From Candidatus Woesearchaeota archaeon (GTDB lineage: Archaea; Nanobdellota; Nanobdellia; Pacearchaeales; GW2011-AR1), in contig CAYPBR010000001.1 of assembly GCA_964409005.1 (NCBI GenBank), positions 18,383 through 82,382 on the forward strand: DNA of 64,000 nt. Direction: 5' to 3'. Under the pieces are notes generated by a model that was given only the letters and a program-made list of their open reading frames with translations, was not told where the DNA came from and ran no database searches. This document shows positions 135-13,717 of this stretch, piece by piece (the first letter of the stretch is position 1; each line of letters begins with the position of its first letter). The position numbers and the translations under genes are program-made.

Positions 135-402
135 AATATTCCTCTTTTAAATCTGTTCTTGAATTTATTAAAGCTCTTAAATCTTTTACACCACGAGTAG
201 AAAAGAACTTTTGATTATATCCTATAGCTTTCAAAAATGCTTTCATTTTATTATATTCTATTGTTTTTCTAAATGTAGGATAACCACTTTTCAAACGTAC
301 CCATTTTTTATCTTTTTTTTGGTATCGTCCGTATTTACCATAATCTCTGATAGTACCTTCAGGAAAAGATTTTCGACCTCTAAATGTTATTTGTGTTTTC
401 AT
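106..402 (-). CDS. hypothetical basic protein (98 aa)
   Basis: Minus-strand ORF co-oriented with its neighbours; K/R/Y-rich; no recognisable motif. Confidence 0.4.
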   Translation of the reverse strand: MKTQITFRGRKSFPEGTIRDYGKYGRYQKKDKKWVRLKSGYPTFRKTIEYNKMKAFLKAIGYNQKFFSTRGVKDLRALINSRTDLKEEYYGKSGSTWL

Positions 403-1192
403 TCATCCTCATATGATTCTTTAACCTTTTTTTCATTACTTCATAATATTTTTTATCTTTTTCTATTAGAATGAATTTGCGTTTAAGATTTAAACAAGCT
501 ATTCCTGTCGTTCCCGATCCAGCACAATTATCTAAAACCAAATCACCTTTATTAGTATATGTTTTTATTAAATACTCAAATAATTCTACAGGTTTTTGAG
601 TAGGATGAATCCGATTTATACTATTACATGCACCTTTAGTCGATTTAATGTTTATTAAATTAACTGGGAATCTTAATTTTTCATTACGTTCTTTAGAAGT
701 CTTACTTCTGCCTATTCCTTGTGTACCATTTTTATCCATAGCATGATTTTTTATATCTCTTATTCTCATATTTTCTTTTTTTACTTTAGTCATTTGTGGA
801 TTATATCGTTTACTATTAAATATTACTATATCTTCAGTTACTCTTAATGGTTGACTTTTAGCAAAAGTAAAATTTCCTGACTTAAATTTATTCCATACCC
901 AGCAATATTTAAACATTTTTATATTACTTGATATTAATACCGTTGTGAAAGGCTGACTTGCTGTAAGTACTATAGCTCCATTATTCTTTATTATTCGTTT
1001 ATAATGATCCCACATTTTATTTAAATCAATTGCTACATCCCACTTACAAGCAGTCATTCCATGTCCATAAGGCATATCACAAAGGATCATGTCAATAGAA
1101 TTGTCCTCTATTTTATACATTGCTTTTAAGCAATCACCTAAAATTATTTTATTCATCCTCGTCGTCTTTTCTACCACGTAATAATTCTTCAT
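380..1192 (-). CDS. beta-class DNA amino-methyltransferase (N6-adenine or N4-cytosine)
   Basis: N-terminal 'SIDMILCDMPYG' is a DPPY-type motif IV. C-terminal 'LVLDNCAGSGTTGIAC' is SAM motif I (FxGxGTT). Motif IV precedes motif I, which defines the beta class. Confidence 0.85.
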   Translation of the reverse strand: MKNYYVVEKTTRMNKIILGDCLKAMYKIEDNSIDMILCDMPYGHGMTACKWDVAIDLNKMWDHYKRIIKNNGAIVLTASQPFTTVLISSNIKMFKYCWVWNKFKSGNFTFAKSQPLRVTEDIVIFNSKRYNPQMTKVKKENMRIRDIKNHAMDKNGTQGIGRSKTSKERNEKLRFPVNLINIKSTKGACNSINRIHPTQKPVELFEYLIKTYTNKGDLVLDNCAGSGTTGIACLNLKRKFILIEKDKKYYEVMKKRLKNHMRMNENTNNI

Positions 1193-3044
1193 TATGAAAA
1201 AACATACTTCTCAAAAAGTTTTCAGCATTAATGACAGATAAATTTTGTATTGTAGGTGAATCTTTAATATCCATAACACCTTTATCAATAGCTTCTTTTT
1301 CATCTACAGACATTCTAGGTATTAACTCTTTTTTTGATCTCTGTTCTTGATTAATCTCTGCTCTTGTTTTCCCAACAAATTCGCTAGTTCTATCACTATA
1401 ATACTGTAATATATTAGGATCAACTAGTTCTGCAAGTTTACAATAGGCTTCTGCAAGAAAAAAATGGTCAGGGCCTGACTCACGCCATTCGAATTTACCT
1501 CTATTACGATTCGCTACCTCTACAAATATCCTTGTTGAACTTAAAAGTTGTTGATAATATTCACCGTAGTCTTCCATAGAATCATTATAAATATCACTTG
1601 TATCTAATGGATTAAGCATTATTTGTTTAACAAAATCAGACTTCACTTCATCTAATATAAATGTTCGATCTATTGTAATACGCTTTTCCTTTTTCCATTT
1701 ATCACGCATTTTTCTAAGCGTCAATATCGTTTGACCTAATTTAAAATTACAGGAATATAACTTCGATATAGATTTTTTTATTCTTTCTACTTCTCTAATC
1801 TCTGGATGTTCATCAATTACCATATATTTTGTATTCTTTATTTTCTTTAAATAGTTTACTAAGTGCTGAGTCGTTTCAATTTTTCTCGCATCAATTAATT
1901 GTCTTTTTCCATTATTTAATGCTGCTCGTACTATAACATAATAATAAGTTCCTACATCAATTCCTATATAAATTCGTTTAAATGAATTAATATATACGGT
2001 TTGACCTTTCAATGTATAATTACTATCTTCTTCTGCCTTTTTCAATAATGAATAAGTTATTTTATTTTCCGATGATGAAAATGGTAATCCTAACTTAGAA
2101 TTAACAAATAACTGCATTTCTTTTGCGTTTCCAAGTGCTTTACCATATTGGTTAACTAATGTTTTTAATTCTATATTTGCTGAAAATAACTGACTTATTC
2201 TTCGCCCTTTTTTATCTTTATTTTTATATGTATCAACCCACAACCCCTTTTTCATTCTATTAATTTTAGTACCGCACTTTGTACATGCTACCCATACATT
2301 ATTGTCATCTTCACTTAATATTCTAAATGTTAATTCACTTGTTTTTTCTATTATATTTTTAAAGAAGTCCAGTACTTGCCAATGATTACAACTAGAACAA
2401 CGAACATTCCATAATCCCTGTGATGATTCCTGCCAGTGTGAATCTATACCCCAATTCTCTACTGAAGGATTCCCTATTCTTCTTATGAATTTATAATCTG
2501 AAGCATCTAATCTATCCGGTGCCATTTTTAAATTAGCTTGATCACACTTATCAACTTCATCGATGTATAAAACGTCAGCAGGATAACTAATAAAGTCAGC
2601 AGGACTATTTGATCCTACAAAGTTAAGCAATCCCTTTCCAAAATGTTTCAATCCTATAGAATCACTATCGCCAGAAGCATTTTTAATCAACTCTATATAA
2701 TATGGTACCGATTTAAGAAGCCGATTTAATCTGTCCTTCACAAACTTCCCTCTTAAATCAATATTAGGCATAACATATAATATTCTTAATCCTATTGACG
2801 CATCATGAAGCGATGACACAATCATCCATTCACTTAATCCACATTGTACTGATTTTTCAGTACAAATATCCCTCTCATCCAGCATATTATATAATGGAAT
2901 TAAAAATCTATACTTATCACCAAACTCCATCGGTTTATTATGTACATTTTTATGATGGAATCTGGCAAGCCATAATTGAGGTTTTCTTTTCCTCATTGAC
3001 TCCCTTCGCAAATCTAACTTTTTTTCTTTCATATCTACCAACAT
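1149..3044 (-). CDS. terL: terminase large subunit, lambda GpA family
   Basis: 'KSVQCGLSEWMI' matches the gpA Walker-A variant 'KSARVGYSKMLL'. 'VLYIDEVDKCD' is Walker-B-like. The zinc-finger pair 'CSSCNHW...CTKCGTK' matches gpA 'CPHCGEE...CEHNAC'. Confidence 0.8.
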   Translation of the reverse strand: MLVDMKEKKLDLRRESMRKRKPQLWLARFHHKNVHNKPMEFGDKYRFLIPLYNMLDERDICTEKSVQCGLSEWMIVSSLHDASIGLRILYVMPNIDLRGKFVKDRLNRLLKSVPYYIELIKNASGDSDSIGLKHFGKGLLNFVGSNSPADFISYPADVLYIDEVDKCDQANLKMAPDRLDASDYKFIRRIGNPSVENWGIDSHWQESSQGLWNVRCSSCNHWQVLDFFKNIIEKTSELTFRILSEDDNNVWVACTKCGTKINRMKKGLWVDTYKNKDKKGRRISQLFSANIELKTLVNQYGKALGNAKEMQLFVNSKLGLPFSSSENKITYSLLKKAEEDSNYTLKGQTVYINSFKRIYIGIDVGTYYYVIVRAALNNGKRQLIDARKIETTQHLVNYLKKIKNTKYMVIDEHPEIREVERIKKSISKLYSCNFKLGQTILTLRKMRDKWKKEKRITIDRTFILDEVKSDFVKQIMLNPLDTSDIYNDSMEDYGEYYQQLLSSTRIFVEVANRNRGKFEWRESGPDHFFLAEAYCKLAELVDPNILQYYSDRTSEFVGKTRAEINQEQRSKKELIPRMSVDEKEAIDKGVMDIKDSPTIQNLSVINAENFLRSMFFHNEELLRGRKDDEDE

Positions 3045-3080
3045 ATATACTCCATCAAAGTAAAAGCATTTTCACCTTGG

Positions 3081-3272
3081 TTATAATAAATCAAGCTCAC
3101 TTTTAACAAACCATTTAGTATGAATAGCACTTGATTCGCTATCAACCCATTCAACATTATATTTAAGACCCGCTACATCTAACCATATTCCATTTATTTT
3201 GCCTCTCATATCATTTACTCGAATTCTTACTCTTTCGCCCATTGCATAATCCACTTTAATTACCTTATCCAT
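3081..3272 (-). CDS. hypothetical protein (63 aa)
   Basis: Minus-strand ORF immediately upstream of terL; a small terminase subunit candidate only by position. Confidence 0.35.
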   Translation of the reverse strand: MDKVIKVDYAMGERVRIRVNDMRGKINGIWLDVAGLKYNVEWVDSESSAIHTKWFVKSELDLL

Positions 3273-3311
3273 TTTTTTACTACTCCTTTGACTCTTCTAT
3301 TTTAATAAACT

Positions 3312-3563
3312 TCAAATTTCCGTACTCCAATGAAGTTCCCATTTAGTAAGTACTTCTTTTAAAATTTTATCCCATAACAAAGTAGTCTTACGTATCTTAA
3401 AACCCCATTCCTTGCTCATACTCGCTTTTACTGTACCATCGCTTCTTTCAATTACACAACATAAATAACATTTTTTATTTAAGGTTACTCTGAAAGTAGC
3501 TCGTGATATAAGTTTTTCTACTTTCGCATTATCACTTGTCATTTTTTTTATCTCTCCATCCAA
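3312..3563 (-). CDS. hypothetical protein (83 aa)
   Basis: Minus-strand ORF, co-oriented and tightly packed. Confidence 0.4.
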   Translation of the reverse strand: MDGEIKKMTSDNAKVEKLISRATFRVTLNKKCYLCCVIERSDGTVKASMSKEWGFKIRKTTLLWDKILKEVLTKWELHWSTEI

Positions 3564-3717
3564 TCATTTATTTCATCCAAATCATATCCATCAGGAAATG
3601 AACAATATTTATTACATGACTTATTCATTTTTTTAATATTACGCTTATCTTCATTTGAAATAATTATCATTACAGGTTCTTTATTGCCATCAAATATTTT
3701 ATCACCTACTTTCACTT

Positions 3718-4005
3718 TCATTTCTTTACTCCTAATTTGAATTTGCTTTCTGCATATAAAAATGGATCATCAACTGTTACCACAATATCATCTTCACTAT
3801 CTACTTCACTATCAAATGAGCATTCAATAGTTCCAATGTTCTGCCCTAAACCTTCTAAATATTGGCATCTCGTACAATTTTCCTGATAAAACTTATCGCT
3901 CCACTTTATTACTTGCTCTTTAAGATGGCAATATAATCTCCCATTCTTATCTGCTATCATAATATGATTTACTCTATTGCTACTTTCACTCTCGACTTTT
4001 AACAA
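3718..4005 (-). CDS. hypothetical Cys-rich protein (95 aa)
   Basis: Contains C-x2-C...C-x...C spacing suggestive of a zinc ribbon. Confidence 0.45.
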   Translation of the reverse strand: MLKVESESSNRVNHIMIADKNGRLYCHLKEQVIKWSDKFYQENCTRCQYLEGLGQNIGTIECSFDSEVDSEDDIVVTVDDPFLYAESKFKLGVKK

Positions 4006-4162
4006 AATAGCCTCCTGTACTTAATTCAAACTTATCTTCTTGATTTGTATCACCACATATTTGACAAATAAATCCTTCAGTATATAGTTTATGATAAGTA
4101 TGTTGTTTACAATTTTTACAACATATCCATCTATCACGAAATTCACCACGTATCCAACACAT

Positions 4163-6040
4163 TTAACTTACCTCTTCATAAGTTCCTGGCTTTGCAAGTT
4201 CAACATCTATCCAATATACAGGTAAAAACTGTTTTGGATTTTTAGATACCCACTCAATATTTCTTAATCCGCCTACACCTTTCGGAGCATAAACTGTATC
4301 ATAGTCCTGAAGAAATTCATTACCACTTTGTCTACTTATATCATAATCTTGAAATAAAGTTTTCTTTTGCCCTAATGCGTTTTTACATACAAATAATACT
4401 CCCCTCGTTCCTATTTGTCTACTAAAGCCTTTACCTACATATTGTAACGACTTTGAACTATTCGATGATCCATAAATTCCGTCACCTATCATTCTACCTA
4501 CTTCAGGTTTTGTTACTTTAAATCCGCCCCTTGCAATCTTAGCAGCGTTCTTAAACGCCGTTCCGTGATATGAGAATGTTACATTCCCTATATCTTTTTC
4601 AACTTTTTTATAATCTTTATAATAACTTGTATCATCAATTTTAAAAATGTTATGTATTTTAAATCCAAAGCTTCCATGTTCATCTTTATCAAAGGTCGAC
4701 TTCATTTTATCGTATACTTTCTTTTGCTCTTTTGACGATGCATTACTTAATGAAAATGTTTTACGCTCTTCACCTTGCTCTGATAATGCCGATAACAGTT
4801 TCTTTTTTGCCGATTCTCCTTTATATGCCTGACTTCTTTTTTCTATAAATAACTTTCTTAATTCTTCAGCATCGTCTACTCCATAAGCTTCTTTTGCATT
4901 TATCAATTTAGAATTTTTTCTCATTTTAGGAAGTAGTATCTTATTTGTATAATATGCTGTATATAGCGCTTCAAACCATTTCTTTGATTTAGGATTATCT
5001 TTTTGAGTGCTCGTAATATCTCTTTTCAATTTCTTTACTACATCTAATTTTATATTTCCAATATCACTCATTATATTTTTATTCCTTTTCATAAAATCTT
5101 TACTTTTTTTCATCGGTTCTGTCTGCACATTAAAAGCATCAATCAATTGTTTTTTTTCTACAGCCGTTATACCTTTAGCTTCTTTAATTATTTTAATATT
5201 ATCTGTATTATCATCACTCCAATAATCAAGCATATAACCTTCATCGGATATAAGCGCTGAATATCTTTTTAATACAATTGGAATCGAGTCTACTATTTCA
5301 GCTCTATCCACTTGAGGCATCATACTTACTTTAGCACTATCAAAATCTTTATAATTATCAACAGTATATCCTCTTTGTTTAGCAACCTTCTTTAAAGTCT
5401 TATTATAATATTTATCATATATTTCTTTTCTTACATTATGTATTGCATTACGTGATCTACTTACTACATTATCTAATTTCTTACTTTCTTTTCTTAACGC
5501 TCGTACATTTTCATCCTTTGCATACTGTTTCAATAATATTTTTCTATATGGTTCTATTACATCTTTCATTTCCTTCGGCATTCCTGTAAACATTTTAACG
5601 CCGTACTTCTTTTCCATTTCTATTATCTCACCTAACTTTAATCCAATTTTATTTGTTGTATACTTACTTGATGATCCCATGCTAGGATGATAAATCCACT
5701 TTATATATCCCGGCAACTTACTATAATCAATTTTAATCGTCGACGCTTTAAATATACTTGCCATTTCATCGCTTACATATTTCAGCGACCTCGTATCTTT
5801 ACATAATATTCCAGTACTATCTAATATTTGCTTCTGCTCTTTATTTATTTTCGGTACTCCCACAACTTTTTCTTTAACAGTCTTTTTTCTTTCTACTGCT
5901 GCAGCCACTCCCACATACTTCATCACTCCAGCAACTTTCTTATACTTCAGTAACCTTCCCTTTATATTATATGTTACTACTTGACCCTCAGCAATTCTTC
6001 TTCTTTTTTGTGCCTTAACAAATAACATATCCTTCCTCAA
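4163..6040 (-). CDS. lysine-rich protein with a C-terminal PARP-like ADP-ribosyltransferase catalytic domain
   Basis: C-terminus matches the PARP/tankyrase catalytic core. 'YHGTAFKNAAKIARGGF' ~ 'FHGSPFVNAIIHKGF' and 'GDGIYGSSNSSKSLQY' ~ 'GAGIYFAENSSKSNQY'. 'LFVCKNALGQ' ~ 'LLLCRVTLGK' and 'NIEWVSK' ~ 'AEYVIYR' (catalytic Glu). The H-Y-E triad is present. Confidence 0.7.
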   Translation of the reverse strand: MRKDMLFVKAQKRRRIAEGQVVTYNIKGRLLKYKKVAGVMKYVGVAAAVERKKTVKEKVVGVPKINKEQKQILDSTGILCKDTRSLKYVSDEMASIFKASTIKIDYSKLPGYIKWIYHPSMGSSSKYTTNKIGLKLGEIIEMEKKYGVKMFTGMPKEMKDVIEPYRKILLKQYAKDENVRALRKESKKLDNVVSRSRNAIHNVRKEIYDKYYNKTLKKVAKQRGYTVDNYKDFDSAKVSMMPQVDRAEIVDSIPIVLKRYSALISDEGYMLDYWSDDNTDNIKIIKEAKGITAVEKKQLIDAFNVQTEPMKKSKDFMKRNKNIMSDIGNIKLDVVKKLKRDITSTQKDNPKSKKWFEALYTAYYTNKILLPKMRKNSKLINAKEAYGVDDAEELRKLFIEKRSQAYKGESAKKKLLSALSEQGEERKTFSLSNASSKEQKKVYDKMKSTFDKDEHGSFGFKIHNIFKIDDTSYYKDYKKVEKDIGNVTFSYHGTAFKNAAKIARGGFKVTKPEVGRMIGDGIYGSSNSSKSLQYVGKGFSRQIGTRGVLFVCKNALGQKKTLFQDYDISRQSGNEFLQDYDTVYAPKGVGGLRNIEWVSKNPKQFLPVYWIDVELAKPGTYEEVS

Positions 6041-6237
6041 TTTACCTTATTAATATACTTCCGCTTCTTTAAACTATTAAGTTCACCTAAATCAATATCG
6101 ACCTTATTAAATCTTCTTGTCGTCTTATTAACCTCTGTCTCTACCATGAATGTAGTGCCTTTTATCTGAGCAATTCTTTTAAATTTCTCATCTTTTTTGT
6201 CTTTCTTTAATTTTGTTTTAAGCTTAATCCATTTCAT
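6037..6237 (-). CDS. hypothetical basic protein (66 aa)
   Basis: Minus-strand ORF whose stop overlaps the start of the downstream gene. Confidence 0.45.
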   Translation of the reverse strand: MKWIKLKTKLKKDKKDEKFKRIAQIKGTTFMVETEVNKTTRRFNKVDIDLGELNSLKKRKYINKVN

Positions 6238-6240
6238 ATT

Positions 6241-6654
6241 TTATACCCTCTTCCCTATTATTTCTATATCACTTGAATCAACTTTTCCTAAAAGTTCACC
6301 ACATGATTCATTTTCTAAACTATAAATACCTTTACCTCTTATTTCAAATATACGCACTGTAAATCCACTTAATATATTATCCTTTATACGTACTATATCA
6401 CCGTCATGTATTTCTTTTTCATTTTTATCCACAAATTTTTCTTTTTTATCTATTATCTTTCTAATGAATGCTATTTGACTATCAACAGTAAGATGACAAT
6501 TAGAAAAGCTATTCTCAATTGCATCTAATTTATCTTTCACAAATCTCATTTCTTCAGTATGATCTTTTTCTTTTATCCAAACTTCGTAATCTGTACTTTG
6601 GCCTTTATTTAATTTCTCCATAAAGATCACTGCTGTACTAATATATCTATTCAT
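6241..6654 (-). CDS. MNRY-family paralog 1 (137 aa)
   Basis: One of three tandem paralogs starting MNRY. Shared motifs 'YEVWIKE.D' and 'DGDI.RI...FEI.G...YSLE...IG(K/R)(R/T)(V/I)'. Confidence 0.55.
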   Translation of the reverse strand: MNRYISTAVIFMEKLNKGQSTDYEVWIKEKDHTEEMRFVKDKLDAIENSFSNCHLTVDSQIAFIRKIIDKKEKFVDKNEKEIHDGDIVRIKDNILSGFTVRIFEIRGKGIYSLENESCGELLGKVDSSDIEIIGKRV

Positions 6655-7061
6655 TATATTGTCCTCCCTATCACTTCCATATCAATTGAGTCAACTTTTT
6701 TTAATGATTCAACATATAAGCCGCTTTCTAAACTATAAATATTACTACCTTTTATTTCAAATACACATAAACTATACTCAAATTTTATACGTGTTATATC
6801 GCCATCTTTTATTTCTCTACCATTTTTATCTAAATGCTTTTCTTCTCTATCTATTATATTTTGAATTCTCTCTACTTGAATCTCCGCGCTTGCATTTGAG
6901 TTCAAACATATTGCAATAAAATTCAATTTACTCTTTGTAAGTCTTTTCTCTTCAACATAATCTCTTTCTTTTATCCAAATTTCTTCTTCTTCATTCATTA
7001 TTGGATTGCCGTTTGGCCTAATCATCCACATACCTTGCTTACCGTAAATATATCTATTCAT
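6654..7061 (-). CDS. MNRY-family paralog 2 (135 aa)
   Basis: Tandem paralog; its start overlaps the stop of its neighbour. Confidence 0.55.
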   Translation of the reverse strand: MNRYIYGKQGMWMIRPNGNPIMNEEEEIWIKERDYVEEKRLTKSKLNFIAICLNSNASAEIQVERIQNIIDREEKHLDKNGREIKDGDITRIKFEYSLCVFEIKGSNIYSLESGLYVESLKKVDSIDMEVIGRTI

Positions 7062-7438
7062 TATACTGTCCTCCCTATCACTTTTATAGTTTTACAATCC
7101 GAATTCTCCAAAAAAGCAAATACAGTTTCATCCCCTTTTACACTAACAATACTGTCGTTATCCCGTATTTCAAATACGCCAATATTATCTATGCAAATAA
7201 TATCACCTTCAGCTATCATTCTTCCAGCTTTATCATAATAATCCCGTGGCCTCTCTATAATTAATCTAATTATAGTTGGGCCTTCCCCTTTTACCAAACA
7301 TTCTTCAATATCTCTCAACTGTTTTTTCATAAACTTTACATCTTCTTCTTTTATCCAAACTTCGTAATCTGTGTTTTCATTTTCATCTAACTTATGCATC
7401 CATTCCATATTATTAGTATATCTAGTATATCTATTCAT
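7061..7438 (-). CDS. MNRY-family paralog 3 (125 aa)
   Basis: Tandem paralog. Confidence 0.55.
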   Translation of the reverse strand: MNRYTRYTNNMEWMHKLDENENTDYEVWIKEEDVKFMKKQLRDIEECLVKGEGPTIIRLIIERPRDYYDKAGRMIAEGDIICIDNIGVFEIRDNDSIVSVKGDETVFAFLENSDCKTIKVIGRTV

Positions 7439-7616
7439 GTAACACCCCCACTACTTTTTGACTTGGAATTAACTGTACTACCGGCCCTACTGTACTCTCT
7501 CTAAGATAAAATCCTTCCGTTAAGCACAAACCATAAACTTGTCTTTCAGTCATTACAACTATACTATACTCTGGATTAATGTCTTTCAATAATTCTATCG
7601 CATCTTTTACTTTCAT
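7431..7616 (-). CDS. hypothetical protein (61 aa)
   Basis: Minus-strand ORF. Confidence 0.4.
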   Translation of the reverse strand: MKVKDAIELLKDINPEYSIVVMTERQVYGLCLTEGFYLRESTVGPVVQLIPSQKVVGVLHE

Positions 7617-7641
7617 TTTTATTCACCTTTAAATTATAACA

Positions 7642-7791
7642 TCATTTTTTACTATAATCAATCTTATCTTCAACTCGTTTAAACAGTTCTAACGACAAAC
7701 CACATAACGGGCATTTATCAAATTTAGCACACTTCCATTGTTTTTCAGTAAGTCTATATCGACATAATACGCACTGATACCAAACATTCAT
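7642..7791 (-). CDS. small zinc-ribbon protein (49 aa; MNVWYQCVLCRYRL...CPLCGL...)
   Basis: Hand-translated minus ORF with two CxxC pairs. Below the 60-aa cutoff of the ORF track. Confidence 0.35.
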   Translation of the reverse strand: MNVWYQCVLCRYRLTEKQWKCAKFDKCPLCGLSLELFKRVEDKIDYSKK

Positions 7792-7977
7792 TTTCCCATC
7801 CTCTCTAAATGCTCGTTTACCTTACATATTAATTTTTCTTTAAATTCTTGTACTACTATTTCATTTTTAAATGCATCGTCACTTAATACTTCAATCTGAT
7901 TTCTTAGTTTTTCAACTTCATCTCCAATTTCTATTTCTTCAAAAAGTGAATCTTGATTATTATTCATTTTTCTCCCC

Positions 7978-8205
7978 TCAATATTTATGAGTTTTATAAC
8001 TACATACCTGACTGATACAACATACAGTTTTATTAAATTTTTTAGCTATTTCATTCATTGACCATCCCTTACTTCTCAAATTTCTTATCTCACATGCCTG
8101 CTTAAATGTTAAATTTTTACTTTCTTTCTTTTCTGATTTCCCTAAATGTAACTTTCCATCCGTTACTGGTAAATTTGACACTCCAATTCCAATCTCAAAC
8201 TTCAT
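7978..8205 (-). CDS. small HTH DNA-binding protein (75 aa)
   Basis: 'IRNLRSKGWSMNEIAKKFNKT' is a helix-turn-helix of the sigma region-4 / LuxR type. Confidence 0.5.
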   Translation of the reverse strand: MKFEIGIGVSNLPVTDGKLHLGKSEKKESKNLTFKQACEIRNLRSKGWSMNEIAKKFNKTVCCISQVCSYKTHKY

Positions 8206-8366
8206 TATTTTTTTACCTTTCTAATTTCATCAACTTGATAACTACATACTTTTTTAACATATTCTCTTGACATTTTAAAGTGTTTTGAAAGCCTTACTAT
8301 ATTCCATCCACATCTCCGTAAAAATCTTATCCTTGTAGCTTTATTTTGTGCAATCTTACATTTCAT
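8205..8366 (-). CDS. small HTH protein (53 aa), paralog of 7978..8205
   Basis: Hand-translated: 'MKCKIAQNKATRIRFLRRCGWNIVRLSKHFKMSREYVKKVCSY...'. Aligns with the HTH of the downstream gene. Its TAA stop overlaps the next gene's ATG. Confidence 0.35.
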   Translation of the reverse strand: MKCKIAQNKATRIRFLRRCGWNIVRLSKHFKMSREYVKKVCSYQVDEIRKVKK

Positions 8367-8382
8367 TTTTTTATCTTCTCTT

Positions 8383-8658
8383 TTACCTTTTTAACTCATC
8401 TTCAATCATTTCTATTAACTTTTTATTAGATAGCTTTTTATTGTAATTATTTACATTTGACTCAATTAACATTTTAGTACAATATATCTTTTTCCTATAG
8501 TTCGCAATCACTTCATCTTTTCTATCAAGTTCTTCTCGCTGTTGTTTTATTAATGCTTCCGCAAACATCTCATCATATAATTTACCTGCTCTAAGTGCGC
8601 CAAAAATAGCCGCTACTACAATTAAACTAAATATCCATACAGGTATTATCCACCACAT
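8383..8658 (-). CDS. membrane protein with an N-terminal TM helix (91 aa)
   Basis: 'WWIIPVWIFSLIVVAAIFGAL' is a hydrophobic helix followed by a charged coiled-coil region. Confidence 0.5.
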   Translation of the reverse strand: MWWIIPVWIFSLIVVAAIFGALRAGKLYDEMFAEALIKQQREELDRKDEVIANYRKKIYCTKMLIESNVNNYNKKLSNKKLIEMIEDELKR

Positions 8659-8682
8659 TTTATTCCTCCTTTAATCTTTCAA

Positions 8683-9216
8683 TTGGTTTTCTTGTCTTCT
8701 CTGGCTCGCTTTATCCCTCTGGTTTTCTTTTTCAGTGTGACTCGCTCTTATAGTCTGGTTTTCTTTTTATTATAGGCTCGCTTCCTCCTCTTGGTTTTCT
8801 CATTTTGACTGGCTCGCTTTACCCATCTGGTTTTCTCATCGAATCTGACCCGCTTCTTTTTTCTGGTTTTCTTATTGATCCCGGCTCGCTCTATGCCTCT
8901 GGTTTTCTTCCCCTCAGTGACTCACTCCTTTTTACTGGTTTTCTCATTGACTTCGGCTCGCTCATGCATGCTGGTTTTCTCTCAAAAAATGGCTCGCTTC
9001 TCTTTGCTGGTTTTCTCGTTGAACCCGGCTCGCTCTGTTTGCTTGGTTTTCTCATTTATTTTGACTCGCTCTTTACGCCTGGTTTTCTCATGTACCTTGA
9101 CTCACTCAAATGAATTGGTTTTCTTTCTTTCTTTGGTTCGCTTTACCCATCTGGTTTTCTTCCTTATTCAGGCTTCATTATGCTTATTCAAATATTCTTC
9201 TTTATATGGTTTTCTT
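8683..9216. repeat. tandem array of about 13 imperfect 36-bp direct repeats, iteron-like (candidate replication origin or centromere-like site)
   Basis: Each unit has invariant blocks GCTCGCT and CTGGTTTTCT separated by variable 8-nt and 10-nt spacers. Half-units lie at both ends. The array is intergenic between minus-strand genes. Confidence 0.8.
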
Positions 9217-9914
9217 ATTGATAGCCCTCTTGACAATCTCCATTCCCTTTGAAAATCAATTTCAAACATTTTTACCATATATCTCATTGAAGCATTATGT
9301 CTATGAAGTAAACTTACTCCCCAATCTGCACTTATTAATCTATTTTTATTGTTATCATAAAATCTTCTATAGGGAGAATTCGTTTTAAGAAATGAAGGAG
9401 CTAACACCCCTAAGAGTTTCGATTTTAAAAATGTATCATAAGGTGATCTAAAGCCCGGAGTGAGTTTATCAATAGGTATCAAAGTATCAGTTTTTACCCA
9501 TTCTCCATGATCCCCTTTTTTCTTATCAAACTTATAACCGAAAGTATCTCCGGTTGCTATACCGCTATAAGCCCACATCTTAGATACGGTAGAGCATTTT
9601 TCTATATCTATTCTTGAAAGCAAAACACTACCTAAGGTCGGCCCTATACCAACTTGATCTTTTAACCATTCATTCCATATATTAAACTCCGGCAATGTCG
9701 ATTCAATAAACTTACCCATATCTTTTTCTAATTTTTTAAATCCTTTAAGGTGTAAAAAAAAGATATTTTCTTCACTCTCCATATAATTGCCTGCTCTTAT
9801 TCTACTTTCTAATGAAATACGCATTTTTTGATAATCATAAAACGTATTCACAGCATCTTTCAAAATCTTTTTGTACTTGTCTTCATGCTCGTTACTTTTT
9901 CTTTTGGTTTTCAT
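9168..9914 (-). CDS. helix-hairpin-helix motif protein (248 aa) adjacent to the iteron array
   Basis: 'VGIGPTLGSVLLSRI' fits the HhH consensus (hxxhxGIGxxxAxxIh). No other domain is recognisable. Confidence 0.45.
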   Translation of the reverse strand: MKTKRKSNEHEDKYKKILKDAVNTFYDYQKMRISLESRIRAGNYMESEENIFFLHLKGFKKLEKDMGKFIESTLPEFNIWNEWLKDQVGIGPTLGSVLLSRIDIEKCSTVSKMWAYSGIATGDTFGYKFDKKKGDHGEWVKTDTLIPIDKLTPGFRSPYDTFLKSKLLGVLAPSFLKTNSPYRRFYDNNKNRLISADWGVSLLHRHNASMRYMVKMFEIDFQREWRLSRGLSIRKPYKEEYLNKHNEA

Positions 9915-9924
9915 TTTTTTTCTC

Positions 9925-10161
9925 CTATTGAGGTTTTTTTAGTTTTAACAATCCTATAATAATCAATCCAAACACAATAAAAACAAATAAGTATTTGAAT
10001 GTAACAAGCGGCATACTCATCATTCCTACGCCTACTCCCAATAACACTAACCATATAGTCCACAATGCAATATGTTGGTTAAGTGTCATTGAAGCCTGAT
10101 CGTTCTTCTTTAAGATTTTATCACACATCCGATTTATCTTTGCTCGCCTTTTCGCTATCAT
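9925..10161 (-). CDS. small membrane protein (78 aa, two TM helices)
   Basis: Two hydrophobic segments: 'ALWTIWLVLLGVGVGMMSM' and 'LFVFIVFGLIIIGLL'. Confidence 0.45.
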   Translation of the reverse strand: MIAKRRAKINRMCDKILKKNDQASMTLNQHIALWTIWLVLLGVGVGMMSMPLVTFKYLFVFIVFGLIIIGLLKLKKPQ

Positions 10162-10261
10162 TATTATTACTCACCTTTAGTACTTGTTACATCTAATTTA
10201 TTACAATCCTTCTTTTGCTACTATGTTTTTTTTACCGAATAGATAAACAGATAGTTACTTT

Positions 10262-10609
10262 CTAACTGATTCTTTCTATTGTTTTACCTTCATCATTAAG
10301 CAAATAAGCCCGACTATTAAAGGCAATGCATAACTCATTTCTACCCTTACCATTAAGATCGTAAGACGAGTGAAAACGAGTAACAATTACCTCACATTGA
10401 GTAGGATCATCTTCAGTTTCCCGTCTTATCCATTGTGCATATAAAGCATTTACATCAAGTCGAGGACTTTTAGTAGAATTAAAATCTCTCTCGAAAATTA
10501 AATTTTCTTCAGTTATAAAATATTCATTATGGTTAAATGAAATACTAGTAATATTATCATAATAATACCACTTTGATTTAATAACTGTATCTTGTATCTT
10601 TAAAATCAT
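10262..10609 (-). CDS. hypothetical protein (115 aa)
   Basis: Minus-strand ORF. Confidence 0.45.
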   Translation of the reverse strand: MILKIQDTVIKSKWYYYDNITSISFNHNEYFITEENLIFERDFNSTKSPRLDVNALYAQWIRRETEDDPTQCEVIVTRFHSSYDLNGKGRNELCIAFNSRAYLLNDEGKTIERIS

Positions 10610-10679
10610 TTTGCTACCTCTCTGTCTTTTTATTCTATCTGTCTACCTATGCGGATTTTAGACTATTTATTATTTTTAT

Positions 10680-10979
10680 TCATTTACCCTTCTTTAGTAA
10701 TTGTAACATTTCCGATACTACTCGCTGTTTAATTGACTCTCTGTTATATTTTTTTCTGAAAGTTTCATGCATATCATATAATTCATCCGCATACTGTTTT
10801 AACAACCATTCCTTTTCCGTCCTCAACCGTTCGTTTTCCTTCTTCAACCATTTTATTTCTGTTTCCAATTCTTCGCATGTTTTGTCAGCTTCGCCTTTAC
10901 GATATATGTCAATAAGATTATCACCACCAAAAATTCCTTCTTGACGCAAATCCTCTTCAAATACTTTATACACTGTCAT
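10680..10979 (-). CDS. coiled-coil protein (99 aa)
   Basis: Heptad, leucine-zipper-like segment 'IKWLKKENERLRTEKEWLLKQ'. Preceded by the conserved motif AACAAGCGCTAAAGGAGG. Confidence 0.5.
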   Translation of the reverse strand: MTVYKVFEEDLRQEGIFGGDNLIDIYRKGEADKTCEELETEIKWLKKENERLRTEKEWLLKQYADELYDMHETFRKKYNRESIKQRVVSEMLQLLKKGK

Positions 10980-11000
10980 TTAATCCTCCTTTAGCGCTTG

Positions 11001-11168
11001 TTATTCCTTGTTCATTTCTATTATACATTCATCACATAAAGCGTGTCCTTGCTTGACCGATATACTACACCGACAACAATTCCAATTGTAATAAGGATTC
11101 CTTGACCGCATCTTAGACTCTATCCTCTCCCACCGCTTGGCATTTTGTGTCATTTCTTCCGCTTTCAT
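11001..11168 (-). CDS. small zinc-ribbon protein (55 aa; ...NWNCCRCS...CDEC...)
   Basis: Hand-translated. Preceded by AACAAGCGTTAAAGGTGGGAGAATG. Below the ORF-track cutoff. Confidence 0.4.
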   Translation of the reverse strand: MKAEEMTQNAKRWERIESKMRSRNPYYNWNCCRCSISVKQGHALCDECIIEMNKE

Positions 11169-11204
11169 TCTCCCACCTTTAACGCTTGTTATCTATTAAA
11201 ATAT

Positions 11205-11402
11205 TTATCCCTGATCTTTACCCGACCACCACAATACTTCTTGCACCTTTCTAACATTCCAATCATCAGCTTTAACTTCACCCCTCTTCGTTTTATATAC
11301 ATCCATTTTTTGAGCCACTTCAAGCGCATCAGAAATATTCTCAGCATCGATAAGCCGACTAAATAAAATTGTCTCTTCATGTACTATTTCAAACTTTCTC
11401 AT
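11205..11402 (-). CDS. hypothetical protein (65 aa)
   Basis: Preceded by the conserved AACAAGCGTTAAAGGAGGG motif. The alternative frame 11189..11380 is judged spurious. Confidence 0.5.
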   Translation of the reverse strand: MRKFEIVHEETILFSRLIDAENISDALEVAQKMDVYKTKRGEVKADDWNVRKVQEVLWWSGKDQG

Positions 11403-11660
11403 TCAACCCTCCTTTAACGCTTGTTGCATTTCTTCAATTAAGTATTTCTTTTGGTCATCTTCCCCGCACCAAATAGCATTTACATTATCACTACTTCCAA
11501 TACATTTTAAAATCAACCATTCCCTTTCCTTCTCCAACCGCTCGTTTTCTTTATAAACAATATCTAATTCATCGCCCACATCATTCAATTTATTCTTACA
11601 TTGATGAAAATGTTGAAAAGCTCTCTGCTTATTTACAACTTCTATAAATGGATTACTCAT
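11403..11660 (-). CDS. hypothetical protein (85 aa)
   Basis: Coiled-coil 'ENERLEKEREWLILK', similar to the 10680..10979 product. Preceded by a variant of the conserved motif. Confidence 0.5.
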   Translation of the reverse strand: MSNPFIEVVNKQRAFQHFHQCKNKLNDVGDELDIVYKENERLEKEREWLILKCIGSSDNVNAIWCGEDDQKKYLIEEMQQALKEG

Positions 11661-11756
11661 TCAATTCCTCTCCTTCAGAGCTTGCTGCAAATTCATATAA
11701 TACCAACCATGCCATACCCATAGATATATATTAATGTAGTACCCTGATATATACAT

Positions 11757-11969
11757 TCACTTACTCTCTTTTCGTACTTGTATGGCTATTTGTTGCATTC
11801 TATCTATACAATCATTTAATTCTGGAGCTTCACTATTCTCATACGTATTAACTGCTTCTTCGTCAATATCATCCAATGCCTTTCTCAATTGCTCAATTTC
11901 CAATATCATCCATCCTATAATTTCATTAGGTACACGGTATTTTTTCTTTATGTCTATCAATCTATCCAT
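11757..11969 (-). CDS. hypothetical protein (70 aa)
   Basis: Minus-strand ORF. Confidence 0.45.
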   Translation of the reverse strand: MDRLIDIKKKYRVPNEIIGWMILEIEQLRKALDDIDEEAVNTYENSEAPELNDCIDRMQQIAIQVRKESK

Positions 11970-11995
11970 TCAACTCTCTCATAAGATATATTAAA

Positions 11996-12223
11996 CTATA
12001 GCAGATCATATATAAATCTAATCGCCGAGGCAGCAGCATGAAGTGCTTCTTTTCTAAGTTGCTGAGGATTCTGTTTTCCTTTTATCTCATCCCACAATTC
12101 ATCAACCTCTTCTTCTAATACTGCTTTTCCTTCGTGATATGAATTATAGGGAGCCCACTTTTTTCTTGCAAACATAATCTGTCTATTAACTTCATCAAGT
12201 ATTGCTATTAACTTCTTATCCAT
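11996..12223 (-). CDS. hypothetical protein (75 aa)
   Basis: Preceded by AACAAGCTTTAAAGGGAGTG. Confidence 0.5.
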   Translation of the reverse strand: MDKKLIAILDEVNRQIMFARKKWAPYNSYHEGKAVLEEEVDELWDEIKGKQNPQQLRKEALHAAASAIRFIYDLL

Positions 12224-12448
12224 TCACACTCCCTTTAAAGCTTGTTGCATTTTATCTATAATTCTACATCATTATTCATCCATTCTCCATACAACTTTTC
12301 CCAATTTCTTATAGCTATATCTTTATCAATTGCATAAACAGTCCAGTCCAAACACAATATATGCCATGCTTTAAATCCTTGATCCCACACTGGTTCAAGC
12401 GACCATCCACATAAAGGACAGTTTTTCATTTTTACTCTCCTTTAAATT

Positions 12449-12781: not shown

Positions 12782-12982
12782 ATTTTCTCCTTAATCTTTT
12801 TGCATTTCTTTTATTAAATAAAGAATTTGCGTTTCAATCATTCTCACTTAAGCACTATAATATACTGAAAGTTTCTCATCATCTTCACTATCGAAAATCT
12901 TTAATAATGCTTTTCGCGATTCTCGTAAATCTTCTATATACTTTTCTTTACCAAATATTGACATTATTTTATCCCTTAAAAT

Positions 12983-13717
12983 TTAATCTTCGTCCAAATA
13001 ATCCATTTCCCTTAGGGCTTGATCAATTTCTTTTTCAGTCATCCCACTATATTCATTATTCTGTATAGCTTGACCTTGACCTTGGTTCTGATTTAATATT
13101 GTTTTCGCCGCGTTAACATTAATTCTTCCAGCATACCCAAGTAAGTCCGAAATTGCTTTTCTTCTTACTTCTGCATTAGTCCTTCGATTCGATATTATCT
13201 GCATCAGCTCCAATATAGCTATCTCTTGATTTTGTGCAAATATCTCGGTTATTCGTTTATCAATGCTGTATTGATAGGTCTCAATCAATCCTTTTGTCCC
13301 ATCAAACGTCAGCCAATTACTGATAGTCGCTACCGACACGCCAAATTGTTTAGCCCAATCTTTATGAGTTTTATGCTTCACACAAGTTGAATAATCTAAG
13401 CAAAACTTTCGCATTTGCGGTGAAACTCTTTGTTTTGCGTTTTGCGCTTCTTCCCAGGTTCGCACAAGCTCGGGATAAGCAATAGGTTTACTGTCTTCCC
13501 ACAATAAAATATTTTCAATAAGTTGAGGTTTAGTTAACCTGCAATAAGGAAGATTTTTCCTCCTGCAAAAAACTTTCAATTTATCACGTAAAACATTTTC
13601 CAACTGTTCTTTTGTATGTTTTTTTCCCGATGGTTTTACAAAGGGTTTTGGATTTTTCACTGGAATCGGCATTTTATCCTCTAAAATAATAATTGAGTTG
13701 TGTATAAAACAAAGCAT
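12983..13717 (-). CDS. HTH DNA-binding protein (244 aa). A small-terminase-like role is possible but unproven
   Basis: 'WAKQFGVSVATISNWL' is an HTH; the C-terminal part is Q/N-rich and acidic. Confidence 0.45.
   Translation of the reverse strand: MLCFIHNSIIILEDKMPIPVKNPKPFVKPSGKKHTKEQLENVLRDKLKVFCRRKNLPYCRLTKPQLIENILLWEDSKPIAYPELVRTWEEAQNAKQRVSPQMRKFCLDYSTCVKHKTHKDWAKQFGVSVATISNWLTFDGTKGLIETYQYSIDKRITEIFAQNQEIAILELMQIISNRRTNAEVRRKAISDLLGYAGRINVNAAKTILNQNQGQGQAIQNNEYSGMTEKEIDQALREMDYLDED

What the first reader, a model, noticed from the sequence alone, without database searches (positions are those of the whole stretch)
4163..6040. Phage protein with a C-terminal PARP-like ADP-ribosyltransferase domain
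The last ~240 aa of this 625-aa lysine-rich protein align motif-for-motif with the PARP/tankyrase catalytic core. 'YHGT...GGF' matches the HGS motif. 'GDGIYGSSNSSKSLQY' matches 'GAGIYFAENSSKSNQY'. 'LFVCKNALGQ' and 'NIEWV' match 'LLLCRVTLGK' and 'EYVIY' (catalytic Glu). Known phage ARTs (T4 Alt, ModA, ModB) are not of the PARP-like H-Y-E type seen here. The lysine-rich N-terminus and the position next to the terminase would fit a host- or DNA-targeting effector, possibly one that is packaged; that role is inferred, not shown. This could be a new anti-defence or host-takeover ADP-ribosylation system.
Basis: partly seen in the sequence, partly recalled or inferred. Interest (0 to 1): 0.8.

Follow-up and report, generated by a model that had tools for sequence, protein, structure and literature searches.

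The report
Phage PARP-like enzyme with small partner
An uncultured contractile-tailed phage encodes, between its two DNA-packaging genes, a PARP-type ADP-ribosyltransferase fused to a helical region found nowhere else and always paired with a small four-cysteine protein; phage PARP enzymes were already known from genome surveys, but I found no report of one being tested or of the paired small protein.

Summary
ORF 4163-6040 (-), more likely starting at the ATG at 6028 (621 aa), ends in a PARP catalytic domain: Pfam PF00644 at 61 bits (cut-off 26.7), PARP1 at E=2e-10 by profile, and a predicted structure that superposes on ART-only PARP1/2 (Foldseek E=3e-14, TM 0.63-0.66). His488, Tyr519 and Glu592 are invariant.

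The novelty claim is overstated. Phage PARP homologues with an H-Y-E triad were reported in 2014. A 2022 survey ranks PARP-type enzymes among the commonest viral ARTs and already infers head packaging from terminase or portal neighbourhoods.

Three things are new here.
- The basic, helical N-terminal 425 aa are private to a tiny family: 6 hits among 1.84 billion representative proteins.
- A ~95-aa four-cysteine acidic protein (3718-4005) lies next to the ART gene in 10 of 10 loci. These include Bacillus and Lysinibacillus Herelleviridae, whose N-terminal regions are unrelated (partner homology: hhalign 98%, E=2e-13).
- The pair is an accessory cassette between the small and large terminase genes, absent from two related contigs.

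Best reading: an active NAD+-dependent ADP-ribosylating effector made with the packaging genes and possibly delivered by the virion, with the small protein as regulator or adaptor. Activity, target, mono versus poly, and packaging are all untested.

The parts
4163..6028 (-). ART-fusion gene, 621 aa plus stop. The probable start is the ATG at 6028; the mechanical ORF extends to a TTG at 6040.
   Evidence: ORF list. GAGGAAGG site 5 nt upstream of the ATG. The product is identical to P0001, 621 aa.
4754..6028 (-). N-terminal module, residues 1-425. It is basic (pI 9.8, 17% Lys). It has a short N-terminal three-stranded beta element (about aa 17-41) followed by long helices, including one of about 68 aa (152-219). 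It is specific to this family.
   Evidence: AF2 model, pLDDT mostly 70-90 in this part. Profile search of 1.84 billion representatives: 6 hits, all from this family. No Pfam, PHROG, NCBIfam or PADLOC match. No PDB or BFVD fold match beyond coiled-coil noise.
4166..4753 (-). PARP-type ADP-ribosyltransferase catalytic domain, residues 426-621.
   Evidence: PF00644 at 61.2 bits, E=1.3e-16. PARP1 at E=2.3e-10 by profile. Model pLDDT 81-98 over the domain. Foldseek against PDB: E=2.9e-14, TM 0.63-0.66 and rmsd 3.7-4.8 A against ART-only PARP1/2.
4565..4567 (-). His488 codon (motif Y-H-G-T), the His of the H-Y-E triad. Gly489 follows it.
   Evidence: Aligned to PARP1 H862/G863 and the tankyrase HG motif. 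Invariant in 8, 15 and 60-sequence alignments. Coordinates.
4472..4474 (-). Tyr519 codon (G-I-Y-G), the Tyr of the triad. The S-S-K-S-x-Q-Y motif follows, with Lys526 and Tyr530.
   Evidence: Aligned to PARP1 Y896, K903 and Y907. Invariant. Coordinates.
4253..4255 (-). Glu592 codon (N-x-E-W), the catalytic Glu of the triad.
   Evidence: Aligned to the tankyrase-2 catalytic Glu. N590 and E592 are invariant across 60 diverse PARP-domain sequences. Coordinates.
3718..4005 (-). p95, a conserved ~95-aa acidic partner protein (pI ~5). Signature: N-H, 11 residues, C, 17 residues, C-x-x-C, then G...G..E-C (four invariant Cys; presumed zinc binding). It has a TTG start behind an AGGAGG site.
   Evidence: Adjacent to the ART gene in 10 of 10 loci. 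Homologous to the small gene immediately upstream of the Herelleviridae PARP fusions: hhalign 98%, E=1.8e-13. No Pfam, PHROG or PDB match. Absent together with the ART gene from L016 and L017.
3986..4162 (-). 58-aa Cys-rich ORF (CC-x2-C ... C-x2-C) whose ATG directly follows the ART stop codon. It overlaps the start of p95. It is not conserved in the relatives, so its status is uncertain.
   Evidence: Read from the sequence. BLASTP/tblastn found no counterpart in the lineage loci searched (L001, L010-L012, L024, L025).
3081..3721 (-). Three small conserved ORFs between p95 and TerL: 57 aa (3548-3721), 83 aa (3312-3563) and 63 aa (3081-3272). Function unknown.
   Evidence: Homologues occupy the same position in L011 and L012. 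No family matches for the 83-aa and 63-aa ORFs; the 57-aa ORF was not scanned.
1149..3044 (-). Large terminase subunit (GpA type), the downstream boundary of the cassette.
   Evidence: PF05876 at E=1e-22 and phrog_675 at E=1e-86. Follows the cassette in every related locus.
12983..13717 (-). Small-terminase-like gene, the upstream boundary of the variable block that holds the cassette.
   Evidence: Weak phrog_2538 'terminase small subunit' match, E=4e-5. Homologous to the HTH protein about 0.5-0.7 kb upstream of TerL in the ART-less relatives L016 and L017, and to L001_8769-9449, which sits about 0.5 kb upstream of the ART gene there.

Best explanation
The gene encodes an active NAD+-dependent ADP-ribosyltransferase of the PARP (H-Y-E) clade. 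It works as a phage effector and forms a two-gene module with a small four-cysteine protein, p95.

Shown:
- The C-terminal domain has the PARP nicotinamide-pocket residues: His488-Gly489, Tyr519, the Ser-Lys-Ser motif, Tyr530 and Glu592.
- It has the ART fold, without the WGR or helical regulatory domains of PARP1-3.
- The N-terminal 425 aa are a basic helical module private to this family.
- p95 is genetically linked to the ART gene in two unrelated phage groups.
- The pair is an accessory cassette between TerS and TerL, at the head of the packaging module of a contractile-tailed phage.

Inferred:
- The enzyme is made together with the packaging proteins.
- The N-terminal module directs it to its site of action. 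Most likely this is the capsid interior, from which it would be ejected into the next host, as T4 Alt is. Less likely, it targets nucleic acid.
- There the enzyme transfers ADP-ribose, either single units or chains, onto host macromolecules to take over the cell or blunt a defence.
- The acidic p95 binds the basic enzyme, either as an inhibitor or chaperone that keeps it quiet in the producing cell, or as a specificity factor.

Approximate confidence by step: active PARP-clade ART 0.85; functional ART-p95 pair 0.7; effector acting on host targets 0.55; virion delivery 0.35.
For: Catalytic domain:
- PF00644 at E=1.3e-16; tankyrase-2 and PARP1 matches.
- H488, G489, Y519, K526, Y530, N590 and E592 are invariant in the 8 family members and in 60 diverse PARP domains. 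The distant members P0012 and P0013 also keep H, Y and E.
- Model pLDDT 81-98 over the domain. Foldseek E=2.9e-14, TM 0.63-0.66 against ART-only PARP1/2.
- The ART domain is better conserved than the N-module (56-71% against 32-60% identity), as expected for a working enzyme.

Partner:
- p95 is adjacent in 10 of 10 ART-fusion loci.
- It is homologous to the Herelleviridae neighbours (hhalign 98%, E=1.8e-13) although the N-modules are unrelated.
- A search that started from p95 recovered a new contig, L020, in which p95 is again followed by an ART fusion.
- ART and p95 are both absent from L016 and L017.

Packaging context:
- The cassette lies between TerS and TerL in the window and L001, and directly before TerL in L010, L011, L012 and L025.
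- In the Herelleviridae the pair sits immediately before portal, prohead protease and major capsid protein.
- The phage has contractile-tail baseplate genes.
- Iyer et al. 2022 report that phage ARTs are enriched in myoviruses and beside terminase and portal genes, and they infer head packaging.
Against: - No experiment shows activity, a target, or packaging for this or any phage PARP-clade enzyme that I could find.
- There is no MuF or other known head-targeting domain.
- PHROGs has no structural family for the protein.
- The cassette is dispensable for virion assembly, because two related contigs lack it.
- Synteny within one phage lineage may partly reflect shared ancestry rather than function.
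- The promoter and terminator scans were uninformative, so the timing of expression is unknown.
- The role of p95 is a guess. It has no recognisable fold or family.
- Only 64 kb of the ~96-kb genome was visible.
Confidence: 0.5

Rival explanations
1. The enzyme is not packaged. It acts late inside the producing cell on the packaging machinery or on host factors that sense it. For example, it could ADP-ribosylate a defence protein that is triggered by terminase or portal, or modify TerL, TerS or portal themselves. p95 would be its adaptor.
For: - The cassette sits exactly between TerS and TerL.
- Iyer et al. 2022 raise this alternative explicitly for terminase- and portal-linked ARTs.
- No head-targeting domain was detected.
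- The cassette is accessory, as expected for a counter-defence gene.
Against: - No defence-related or anti-defence family match (PADLOC: none).
- In the Herelleviridae the pair is embedded among head-morphogenesis genes rather than next to TerL.
- The large private N-terminal module is left unexplained.
Confidence: 0.2
2. The enzyme targets nucleic acid. The lysine-rich N-terminal module would bind DNA or RNA, and the PARP-type domain would ADP-ribosylate DNA ends or RNA phosphates. The substrate could be the phage's own genome ends made by terminase (as protection) or host nucleic acid (as shut-off).
For: - The N-module is basic, with 17% Lys and pI 9.8.
- The closest solved relatives by profile are PARP1 and PARP2. 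From general knowledge, not tested here, these can ADP-ribosylate DNA-break termini in vitro.
- The gene lies between the two terminase genes.
Against: - No recognisable nucleic-acid-binding domain (no WGR, zinc finger or HTH) is detected, whereas the XacN1 and RAS14 PARPs do carry WGR.
- High lysine content is common in proteins from AT-rich genomes (window GC about 30%).
- The domain is not close to the known DNA- or RNA-targeting clades: DarT, pierisin and Tpt1 do not appear among the matches.
Confidence: 0.15
3. The cassette is a toxin-immunity-like or exclusion module. The ART would be toxic and p95 its cognate inhibitor. The pair would be kept as a selfish or superinfection-exclusion element inserted in a TerS-TerL hotspot, not as part of the infection programme.
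For: - Tight two-gene linkage, with an acidic small protein beside a basic enzyme.
- The two genes are present together and absent together in related phages.
- The cassette sits in a variable block that also holds a transposase-like ORF.
Against: - ART identity tracks TerL identity (62/81, 57/72, 53/70 and 39/45%), which points to vertical inheritance with loss rather than mobility.
- None of 185,579 bacterial and archaeal species genomes carries it, so it is not a prophage-borne exclusion gene.
- The known ART antitoxin types (Macro, NADAR, ARH) are absent.
- The 425-aa N-module is unnecessary for a simple toxin.
Confidence: 0.1
4. The domain is catalytically dead, or acts only as an NAD+ hydrolase or NAD+/ADP-ribose binding module, with a structural role for the whole protein.
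For: Some eukaryotic PARP-family members are inactive (general knowledge, not tested here). The Ser equivalent to PARP1 S904 is Ala in P0006 and P0013.
Against: H, Y and E plus the Gly, Lys and second Tyr of the pocket are invariant across all members down to 39% identity. The ART domain is the best-conserved part of the protein.
Confidence: 0.05

Closest known systems
PARP-domain fusion proteins of Bacillus and Lysinibacillus Herelleviridae (YungSlug QKE56383.1 'PARP polymerase', Nachito UXR28848.1, LysYB1 WAB25175.1)
   Same: - The ART domain is C-terminal, 37-41% identical and carries the same motifs (YHGT, G-x-Y, SSKS-x-QY, N-x-EW, WIDVE).
- The N-terminal region is long and has no family match.
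- A p95 homologue is encoded right next to the gene.
- The pair is embedded in the packaging and head gene module of a myovirus.
   Different: - The N-terminal regions are not detectably homologous (hhalign 5%), and the proteins are about 870 aa rather than 621 aa.
- p95 lies upstream of the ART gene there and downstream here.
- Their pair sits directly before portal, protease and capsid genes. Ours sits between TerS and TerL.
- The TerL proteins are only about 23% identical.
Phage and bacterial PARPs with the classical WGR + regulatory helical + ART architecture (Xanthomonas phage XacN1 BBA65562.1, Stenotrophomonas phage RAS14 WAX21566.1)
   Same: A PARP-clade ART domain with the H-Y-E triad, 27% identical. 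These are the phage PARPs cited by Iyer et al. 2021.
   Different: - Ours has no WGR domain and no PARP_reg helical domain.
- Those loci have no p95 within about 3.5 kb.
- They are ~420-aa proteins of jumbo phages, in unrelated gene neighbourhoods.
Human PARP1/PARP2 and tankyrase catalytic (ART) domains
   Same: The fold and the NAD+-pocket residues. Foldseek E about 1e-13 and TM 0.63-0.66 against ART-only constructs; 18-21% identity. Sequence matches at E=2e-10 to 1e-6.
   Different: - It lacks the DNA-break-sensing and regulatory domains of PARP1/2 and the ankyrin and SAM domains of tankyrase.
- TM falls to about 0.45 against constructs that include the helical regulatory domain, so that domain has no counterpart here.
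- Whether it makes polymer is unknown.
Phage T4 Alt (head-packaged ADP-ribosyltransferase) and MuF-fused or polyvalent-protein ARTs
   Same: The proposed logic is the same: an ART made with the head and packaging genes of a myovirus and delivered with the DNA to modify host proteins (PMC9503650).
   Different: - Alt, ModA and ModB belong to the R-S-E clade; this enzyme is H-Y-E.
- It has no MuF domain.
- Packaging is demonstrated for Alt and only inferred here.
PARP1/2-HPF1 (an enzyme plus a small accessory factor that completes the active site)
   Same: Only the idea that a PARP-type ART works with a dedicated small partner protein. 6tx3 (PARP2-HPF1) and 9mja (PARP1-HPF1) are among the best structural matches for the ART domain.
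   Different: p95 has no detectable similarity to HPF1 or to any solved protein. No interaction has been shown. This analogy is speculative.

Membership tests
PARP catalytic domain family (Pfam PF00644; diphtheria-toxin-like H-Y-E clade of ARTs) | Profile match above the curated gathering threshold | tested here: met
   61.2 bits against a 26.7-bit cut-off, E=1.3e-16. All 8 full-length homologues plus P0012 and P0013 also match.
PARP catalytic domain family (Pfam PF00644; diphtheria-toxin-like H-Y-E clade of ARTs) | His-Tyr-Glu catalytic triad at the aligned positions | tested here: met
   H488, Y519 and E592 align to the tankyrase-2 and PARP1 triad residues. They are invariant in 8, 15 and 60-sequence alignments.
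PARP catalytic domain family (Pfam PF00644; diphtheria-toxin-like H-Y-E clade of ARTs) | ART fold with the NAD+-binding split beta-sheet core | tested here: met
   AF2 model with pLDDT 81-98 over the domain. Foldseek against PDB: E=2.9e-14, TM 0.63-0.66, rmsd 3.7-4.8 A against ART-only PARP1/2. This is a prediction, not a solved structure.
PARP catalytic domain family (Pfam PF00644; diphtheria-toxin-like H-Y-E clade of ARTs) | NAD+-dependent ADP-ribosyl transfer (mono or poly) | not testable with these tools
   This needs biochemistry. H-Y-E is necessary but not sufficient for polymer formation (general knowledge).
PARP1-3-type PARPs (WGR + helical regulatory domain + ART), including the bacterial and jumbo-phage versions | WGR domain (PF05406) N-terminal to the catalytic region | tested here: not met
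   No WGR match at E<=1. The same search finds WGR in XacN1 and RAS14.
PARP1-3-type PARPs (WGR + helical regulatory domain + ART), including the bacterial and jumbo-phage versions | Helical regulatory domain (PF02877) packed on the ART domain | tested here: not met
   No PF02877 match. The profile alignment to PARP1 starts only at the ART domain. The helices upstream of the ART domain are modelled with low confidence. TM drops from ~0.65 to ~0.45 when the target includes the helical domain.
Head-packaged phage ART effectors (T4 Alt type, MuF fusions, polyvalent proteins) | A known head-targeting or carrier domain (MuF PF04233, portal fusion, polyvalent-protein LPD domains) | tested here: not met
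   Pfam finds only PARP at E<=1. PHROGs, NCBIfam and PADLOC find nothing relevant.
Head-packaged phage ART effectors (T4 Alt type, MuF fusions, polyvalent proteins) | Gene located within the packaging or head-morphogenesis module | tested here: met
   Between TerS and TerL here and in L001. Directly before TerL in L010, L011, L012 and L025. Before portal, protease and capsid genes in the Herelleviridae.
Head-packaged phage ART effectors (T4 Alt type, MuF fusions, polyvalent proteins) | Physical presence in the virion and ejection into the host | not testable with these tools
   I found no virion proteomics for any phage carrying a homologue.
ART toxin-antitoxin modules (DarT-DarG type and relatives) | Adjacent ADP-ribose-removing antitoxin (Macro, NADAR or ARH) | tested here: not met
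   The neighbour is p95, which has no family or PDB match. No Macro, PARG, ARH, NADAR or Nudix domain was found among the window ORFs scanned.

The most novel reading that the evidence does not exclude
The PARP-type ART and the four-cysteine protein p95 form a previously unrecognised two-component phage ADP-ribosylation system. In it, p95 is an obligatory partner of the enzyme. It would be either an HPF1-like factor that sets what is modified, or a zinc-dependent latch that keeps the enzyme silent until it is delivered. The system would modify an unexpected substrate, such as terminase-generated genome ends or a host defence sensor. That would make it the first functional poly- or mono-ADP-ribosylation system of PARP type shown in a bacterial virus.
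Probability: 0.2. Interest if true: 0.75.

Novelty: new variant of a known kind. Interest (0 to 1): 0.5.

Why it matters
PARP-type enzymes are central to eukaryotic DNA repair and antiviral signalling. Their phage relatives have been proposed as evolutionary precursors, yet I found no report that any has been characterised. This family offers a compact case for experiments. It has an ART domain of minimal size with an intact H-Y-E triad and no known regulatory domain. It has a private N-terminal module, and a dedicated small partner that is conserved in cultivable Bacillus phages (Nachito, YungSlug, LysYB1).

If the partner controls or directs the enzyme, that would show how phages deploy a potentially self-harmful NAD+-consuming enzyme safely. 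It might also reveal a new host target or a counter-defence route. If the enzyme proves to be an ordinary packaged mono-ART, the result would only extend the known Alt-like strategy to another ART clade.

Tried and rejected
1. **Helices upstream of the ART domain as a PARP regulatory (HD) domain.** The long Foldseek alignments suggested this. I rejected it: no PF02877 match, the profile alignment starts at the ART domain, confidence is low in that region, and the TM-scores fit superposition of the ART part only.
2. **N-terminal module related to the Herelleviridae N-terminal regions.** hhalign gives 5% probability. A weak 'TGI[LM]' segment match (E=0.007) is unproven.
3. **N-terminal beta-hairpin motif shared with the small protein encoded after TerL.** This would have been a possible targeting signal. 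A local HMM search gives E>1, so I rejected it.
4. **The 293-aa protein upstream of p95 in the Herelleviridae as a MuF homologue.** It ends in an 'HPNCSC'-like motif, but Pfam finds nothing. 'Minor capsid protein' is only the depositor's label in the Nachito record.
5. **Partner 'eraser' or NAD-salvage genes.** None was found in the window. Only Aeromonas phage Aeh1 has an ADP-ribosylglycohydrolase next to its PARP protein.
6. **Operon boundaries.** The promoter count (62 against 53 +/- 8 expected) and terminator count (3 against 1.8 expected) are indistinguishable from chance.
7. **Searches that gave little.** The word-index search with the ART domain alone returned one fragment. Exact look-ups of P0001, TerL and the methylase found no contig, so the other ~32 kb of the genome and the sample source stayed out of reach. 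The scan of 185,579 species genomes found no relative. Megablast of 20 kb against cultured phages found nothing. The combined p95 alignment was too divergent to scan with.
Full report
**1. The observation**

The ORF is real: 4163..6040 on the minus strand, 625 aa from a TTG. An ATG at 6028, 5 nt after a GAGGAAGG site, is the more credible start. It yields 621 aa, identical to a protein already in the public collection (P0001, from a 96-kb contig). I use the 621-aa numbering throughout.

The C-terminal ~195 aa match the PARP catalytic domain:
- Pfam PF00644 scores 61.2 bits against a 26.7-bit cut-off (E=1.3e-16).
- Tankyrase-2 matches across the whole domain at E=9e-7.
- A profile of the family puts PARP1 first at E=2.3e-10.

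His488, Gly489, Tyr519, Lys526, Tyr530, Asn590 and Glu592 are invariant in the family and in an alignment with 52 other diverse PARP domains.

With a shallow alignment AlphaFold modelled the domain poorly. With 60 sequences it reached pLDDT 81-98 over the domain. That model hits PARP1/2 catalytic structures at Foldseek E=2.9e-14, with TM 0.63-0.66 and rmsd 3.7-4.8 A against ART-only constructs.

**2. What the rest of the protein is**

The N-terminal 425 aa are basic (pI 9.8, 17% Lys). The model shows a short three-stranded beta element followed by long helices, with pLDDT mostly 70-90.

This part has no match in Pfam, PHROGs, NCBIfam or PADLOC. It has no meaningful fold match in PDB or BFVD. 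An exhaustive HMMER profile search of 1.84 billion representative proteins found only six hits, all from the same family. Both full-length new ones (P0012, P0013) again end in a PARP domain with H, Y and E. The fusion is therefore a fixed architecture of a very rare family.

I tested whether the helices just before the ART domain are the PARP regulatory helical domain. They are not detectably so.

**3. Genomic setting**

The window is about 30% GC, and every gene identified in it lies on the minus strand. It encodes a replication module: a PolC-like polymerase, DnaB, primase, RecA, SbcCD and helicases. It also encodes several DNA methyltransferases, endolysins and contractile-tail baseplate proteins. 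It is therefore a myovirus-type phage. It is only distantly related to cultured phages: TerL is about 23% identical to Herelleviridae TerL, and there is no nucleotide match.

In five further independent contigs of the lineage, the ART gene is followed by a conserved ~95-aa gene and then, after 0-3 small ORFs, by a GpA-type TerL. In three of those contigs (L001, L010, L011) a portal gene follows TerL. ART identity ranges from 39% to 74%.

Mapping related contigs onto the window showed three things:
- The gene at 12983-13717 is the small-terminase-like gene.
- In two contigs whose TerL is 61% identical (L016, L017), this gene lies about 0.5-0.7 kb upstream of TerL, with no ART gene and no 95-aa gene.
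- In L001 the ART gene and the 95-aa gene lie directly between TerS and TerL.

The ART gene plus its small neighbour is thus an accessory cassette in a TerS-TerL variable region. In the window this region has grown to about 10 kb. ART identity falls in step with TerL identity (62/81, 57/72, 53/70 and 39/45%), which suggests vertical descent with loss rather than recent transfer. None of 185,579 bacterial and archaeal species genomes carries a relative.

**4. The partner protein**

The 95-aa protein (p95, 3718-4005; TTG start behind an AGGAGG site) is acidic and has exactly four cysteines. Its signature is N-H, 11 residues, C, 17 residues, C-x-x-C, then G...G..E-C.

Its only match among 50,697 phage records fell on the small gene immediately upstream of the PARP-fusion gene of Bacillus phage Nachito. 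The equivalent small genes of YungSlug and LysYB1 share every invariant position. A profile-profile comparison gives 98% probability at E=1.8e-13. A scan that started from p95 recovered a new contig (L020) in which p95 is again followed directly by an 864-aa ART fusion and a long (560-aa) ORF in the position that the portal gene holds in the three cultured Herelleviridae phages.

In total, 10 of 10 ART-fusion loci with enough flanking sequence have p95 next door. The other phage PARP architectures lack it within the fetched flanks, and so do the ART-less relatives. These other architectures are the >1,200-aa Aeh1, AsFcp_2 and X1 proteins and the WGR-containing XacN1 and RAS14 proteins.

The N-terminal regions of the two p95-linked groups are unrelated. 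The conserved unit is therefore the ART domain plus p95. p95 has no Pfam, PHROG or PDB relative. The main survey of viral NAD/ADP-ribose systems has no 'zinc ribbon' mention, and none of its PART/PARP passages that I read describes a partner.

**5. How it probably works**

Shown: a PARP-clade ART domain with a complete nicotinamide pocket, under stronger conservation than its N-terminal module; genetic coupling to p95; and a position at the head of the packaging module of a myovirus.

Inferred:
- The enzyme is produced with the packaging proteins and uses NAD+ to ADP-ribosylate host macromolecules.
- The N-module localises it. Most plausibly this is into the capsid, for ejection with the DNA, following the T4 Alt precedent and the generalisation of Iyer et al. 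2022.
- The acidic p95 binds the basic enzyme as an inhibitor, chaperone or specificity factor.

Mono versus poly activity cannot be read from sequence. No ADP-ribose-removing enzyme was found in the 64 kb available.

The rivals are a non-packaged late enzyme acting on packaging or defence components, a nucleic-acid-directed ART, a toxin-immunity-like selfish cassette, and an inactive domain. None is excluded; the Rival explanations section gives the weights.

**6. Comparison with what is known, and novelty**

Phage PARP homologues with an intact H-Y-E triad were listed in 2014 (PMC4245714). Jumbo-phage PARPs were discussed in 2021 (PMC7824862). The 2022 survey ranks PART/PARP among the most frequent viral ART families and links phage ARTs to terminase and portal neighbourhoods and to head packaging (PMC9503650). 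GenBank annotators have already labelled homologues as PARPs.

T4 Alt, ModA and ModB are indeed of another clade, but PARP-type phage ARTs are a known kind.

What I did not find in the literature I searched:
- any experimental work on a phage PARP-type enzyme;
- this N-terminal module;
- the ART-p95 pairing.

I therefore class the finding as a new variant of a known kind, of moderate interest. Its main value is the conserved partner, which can be tested in cultivable Bacillus phages.

Noticed in passing
window 8683-9107 (intergenic gap between ORFs 8383-8658 and 9168-9914): An array of about 12 imperfect copies with a 36-bp period. On the + strand each unit has a conserved core CTGGTTTTCTC, a variable stretch, then GGCTCGCT. 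It produces the periodic 'GFL' pseudo-ORFs on the + strand. It looks like an iteron or protein-binding-site array (an origin or a packaging-related site?) inside the variable TerS-TerL block.
   Followed up: partly
window 6241-7438 (-): Three tandem paralogous genes of 137, 135 and 125 aa lie just upstream of the ART gene; one of them (6241-6654) was scanned and has weak YopX-like matches (PF09643 at E=1e-3; phrog_98).
   Followed up: partly
window 3986-4162 (-): A 58-aa Cys-rich ORF (possible zinc ribbon) whose ATG immediately follows the ART stop codon. It overlaps the p95 start and is not conserved in the related loci. L011 and L001 instead carry a different small 'KC[YF]IC' segment at this position; in L001 it is fused to p95.
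   Followed up: partly
window 3044-13717 compared with L016, L017 and L001: The TerS-like and TerL genes are about 10 kb apart here. They are about 0.5-0.7 kb apart in L016 and L017, and about 2.9 kb apart in L001. The extra block holds many small ORFs, the YopX paralogues, a phrog_4285 'transposase'-like gene (9168-9914) and the repeat array. It is a hotspot for accessory genes inside the packaging module.
   Followed up: partly
window 380-1192, 34476-35102, 35371-36522, 36515-37075 (-): At least three, possibly four, DNA methyltransferase genes: two N6_N4 type, one MT-A70 and one weak MTS-like. One of them sits between TerL and the portal region. This suggests heavy anti-restriction methylation of the phage genome.
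   Followed up: no
window 22738-23166 (-): A 142-aa ORF that overlaps its neighbours has a weak match to part (chain residues 309-401) of an IscB protein (9k2z, E=0.0017). It may be a nuclease-like insertion next to the helicase gene.
   Followed up: no
L006 (Aeromonas phage Aeh1, NC_005260.1 86277-90968): The 1,211-aa PARP-domain protein of Aeh1 is encoded next to an annotated ADP-ribosylglycohydrolase. This is a writer-eraser pair that the window phage does not show.
   Followed up: no
whole window: Every gene identified lies on the minus strand. GC skew is negative in every 2-kb bin (-0.15 to -0.52), with no switch point across 64 kb. No tRNA genes were found. The stretch 44.5-52.6 kb has few ORFs of 120 aa or more.
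   Followed up: no
L011 (GCA_004196315.1 SDBT01033000.1) 356-2251: The database protein P0003 (574 aa) appears to have a mis-called start. The open frame extends upstream and encodes the conserved N-terminal hairpin segment, which is consistent with the 608-aa cluster member P0009.
   Followed up: partly
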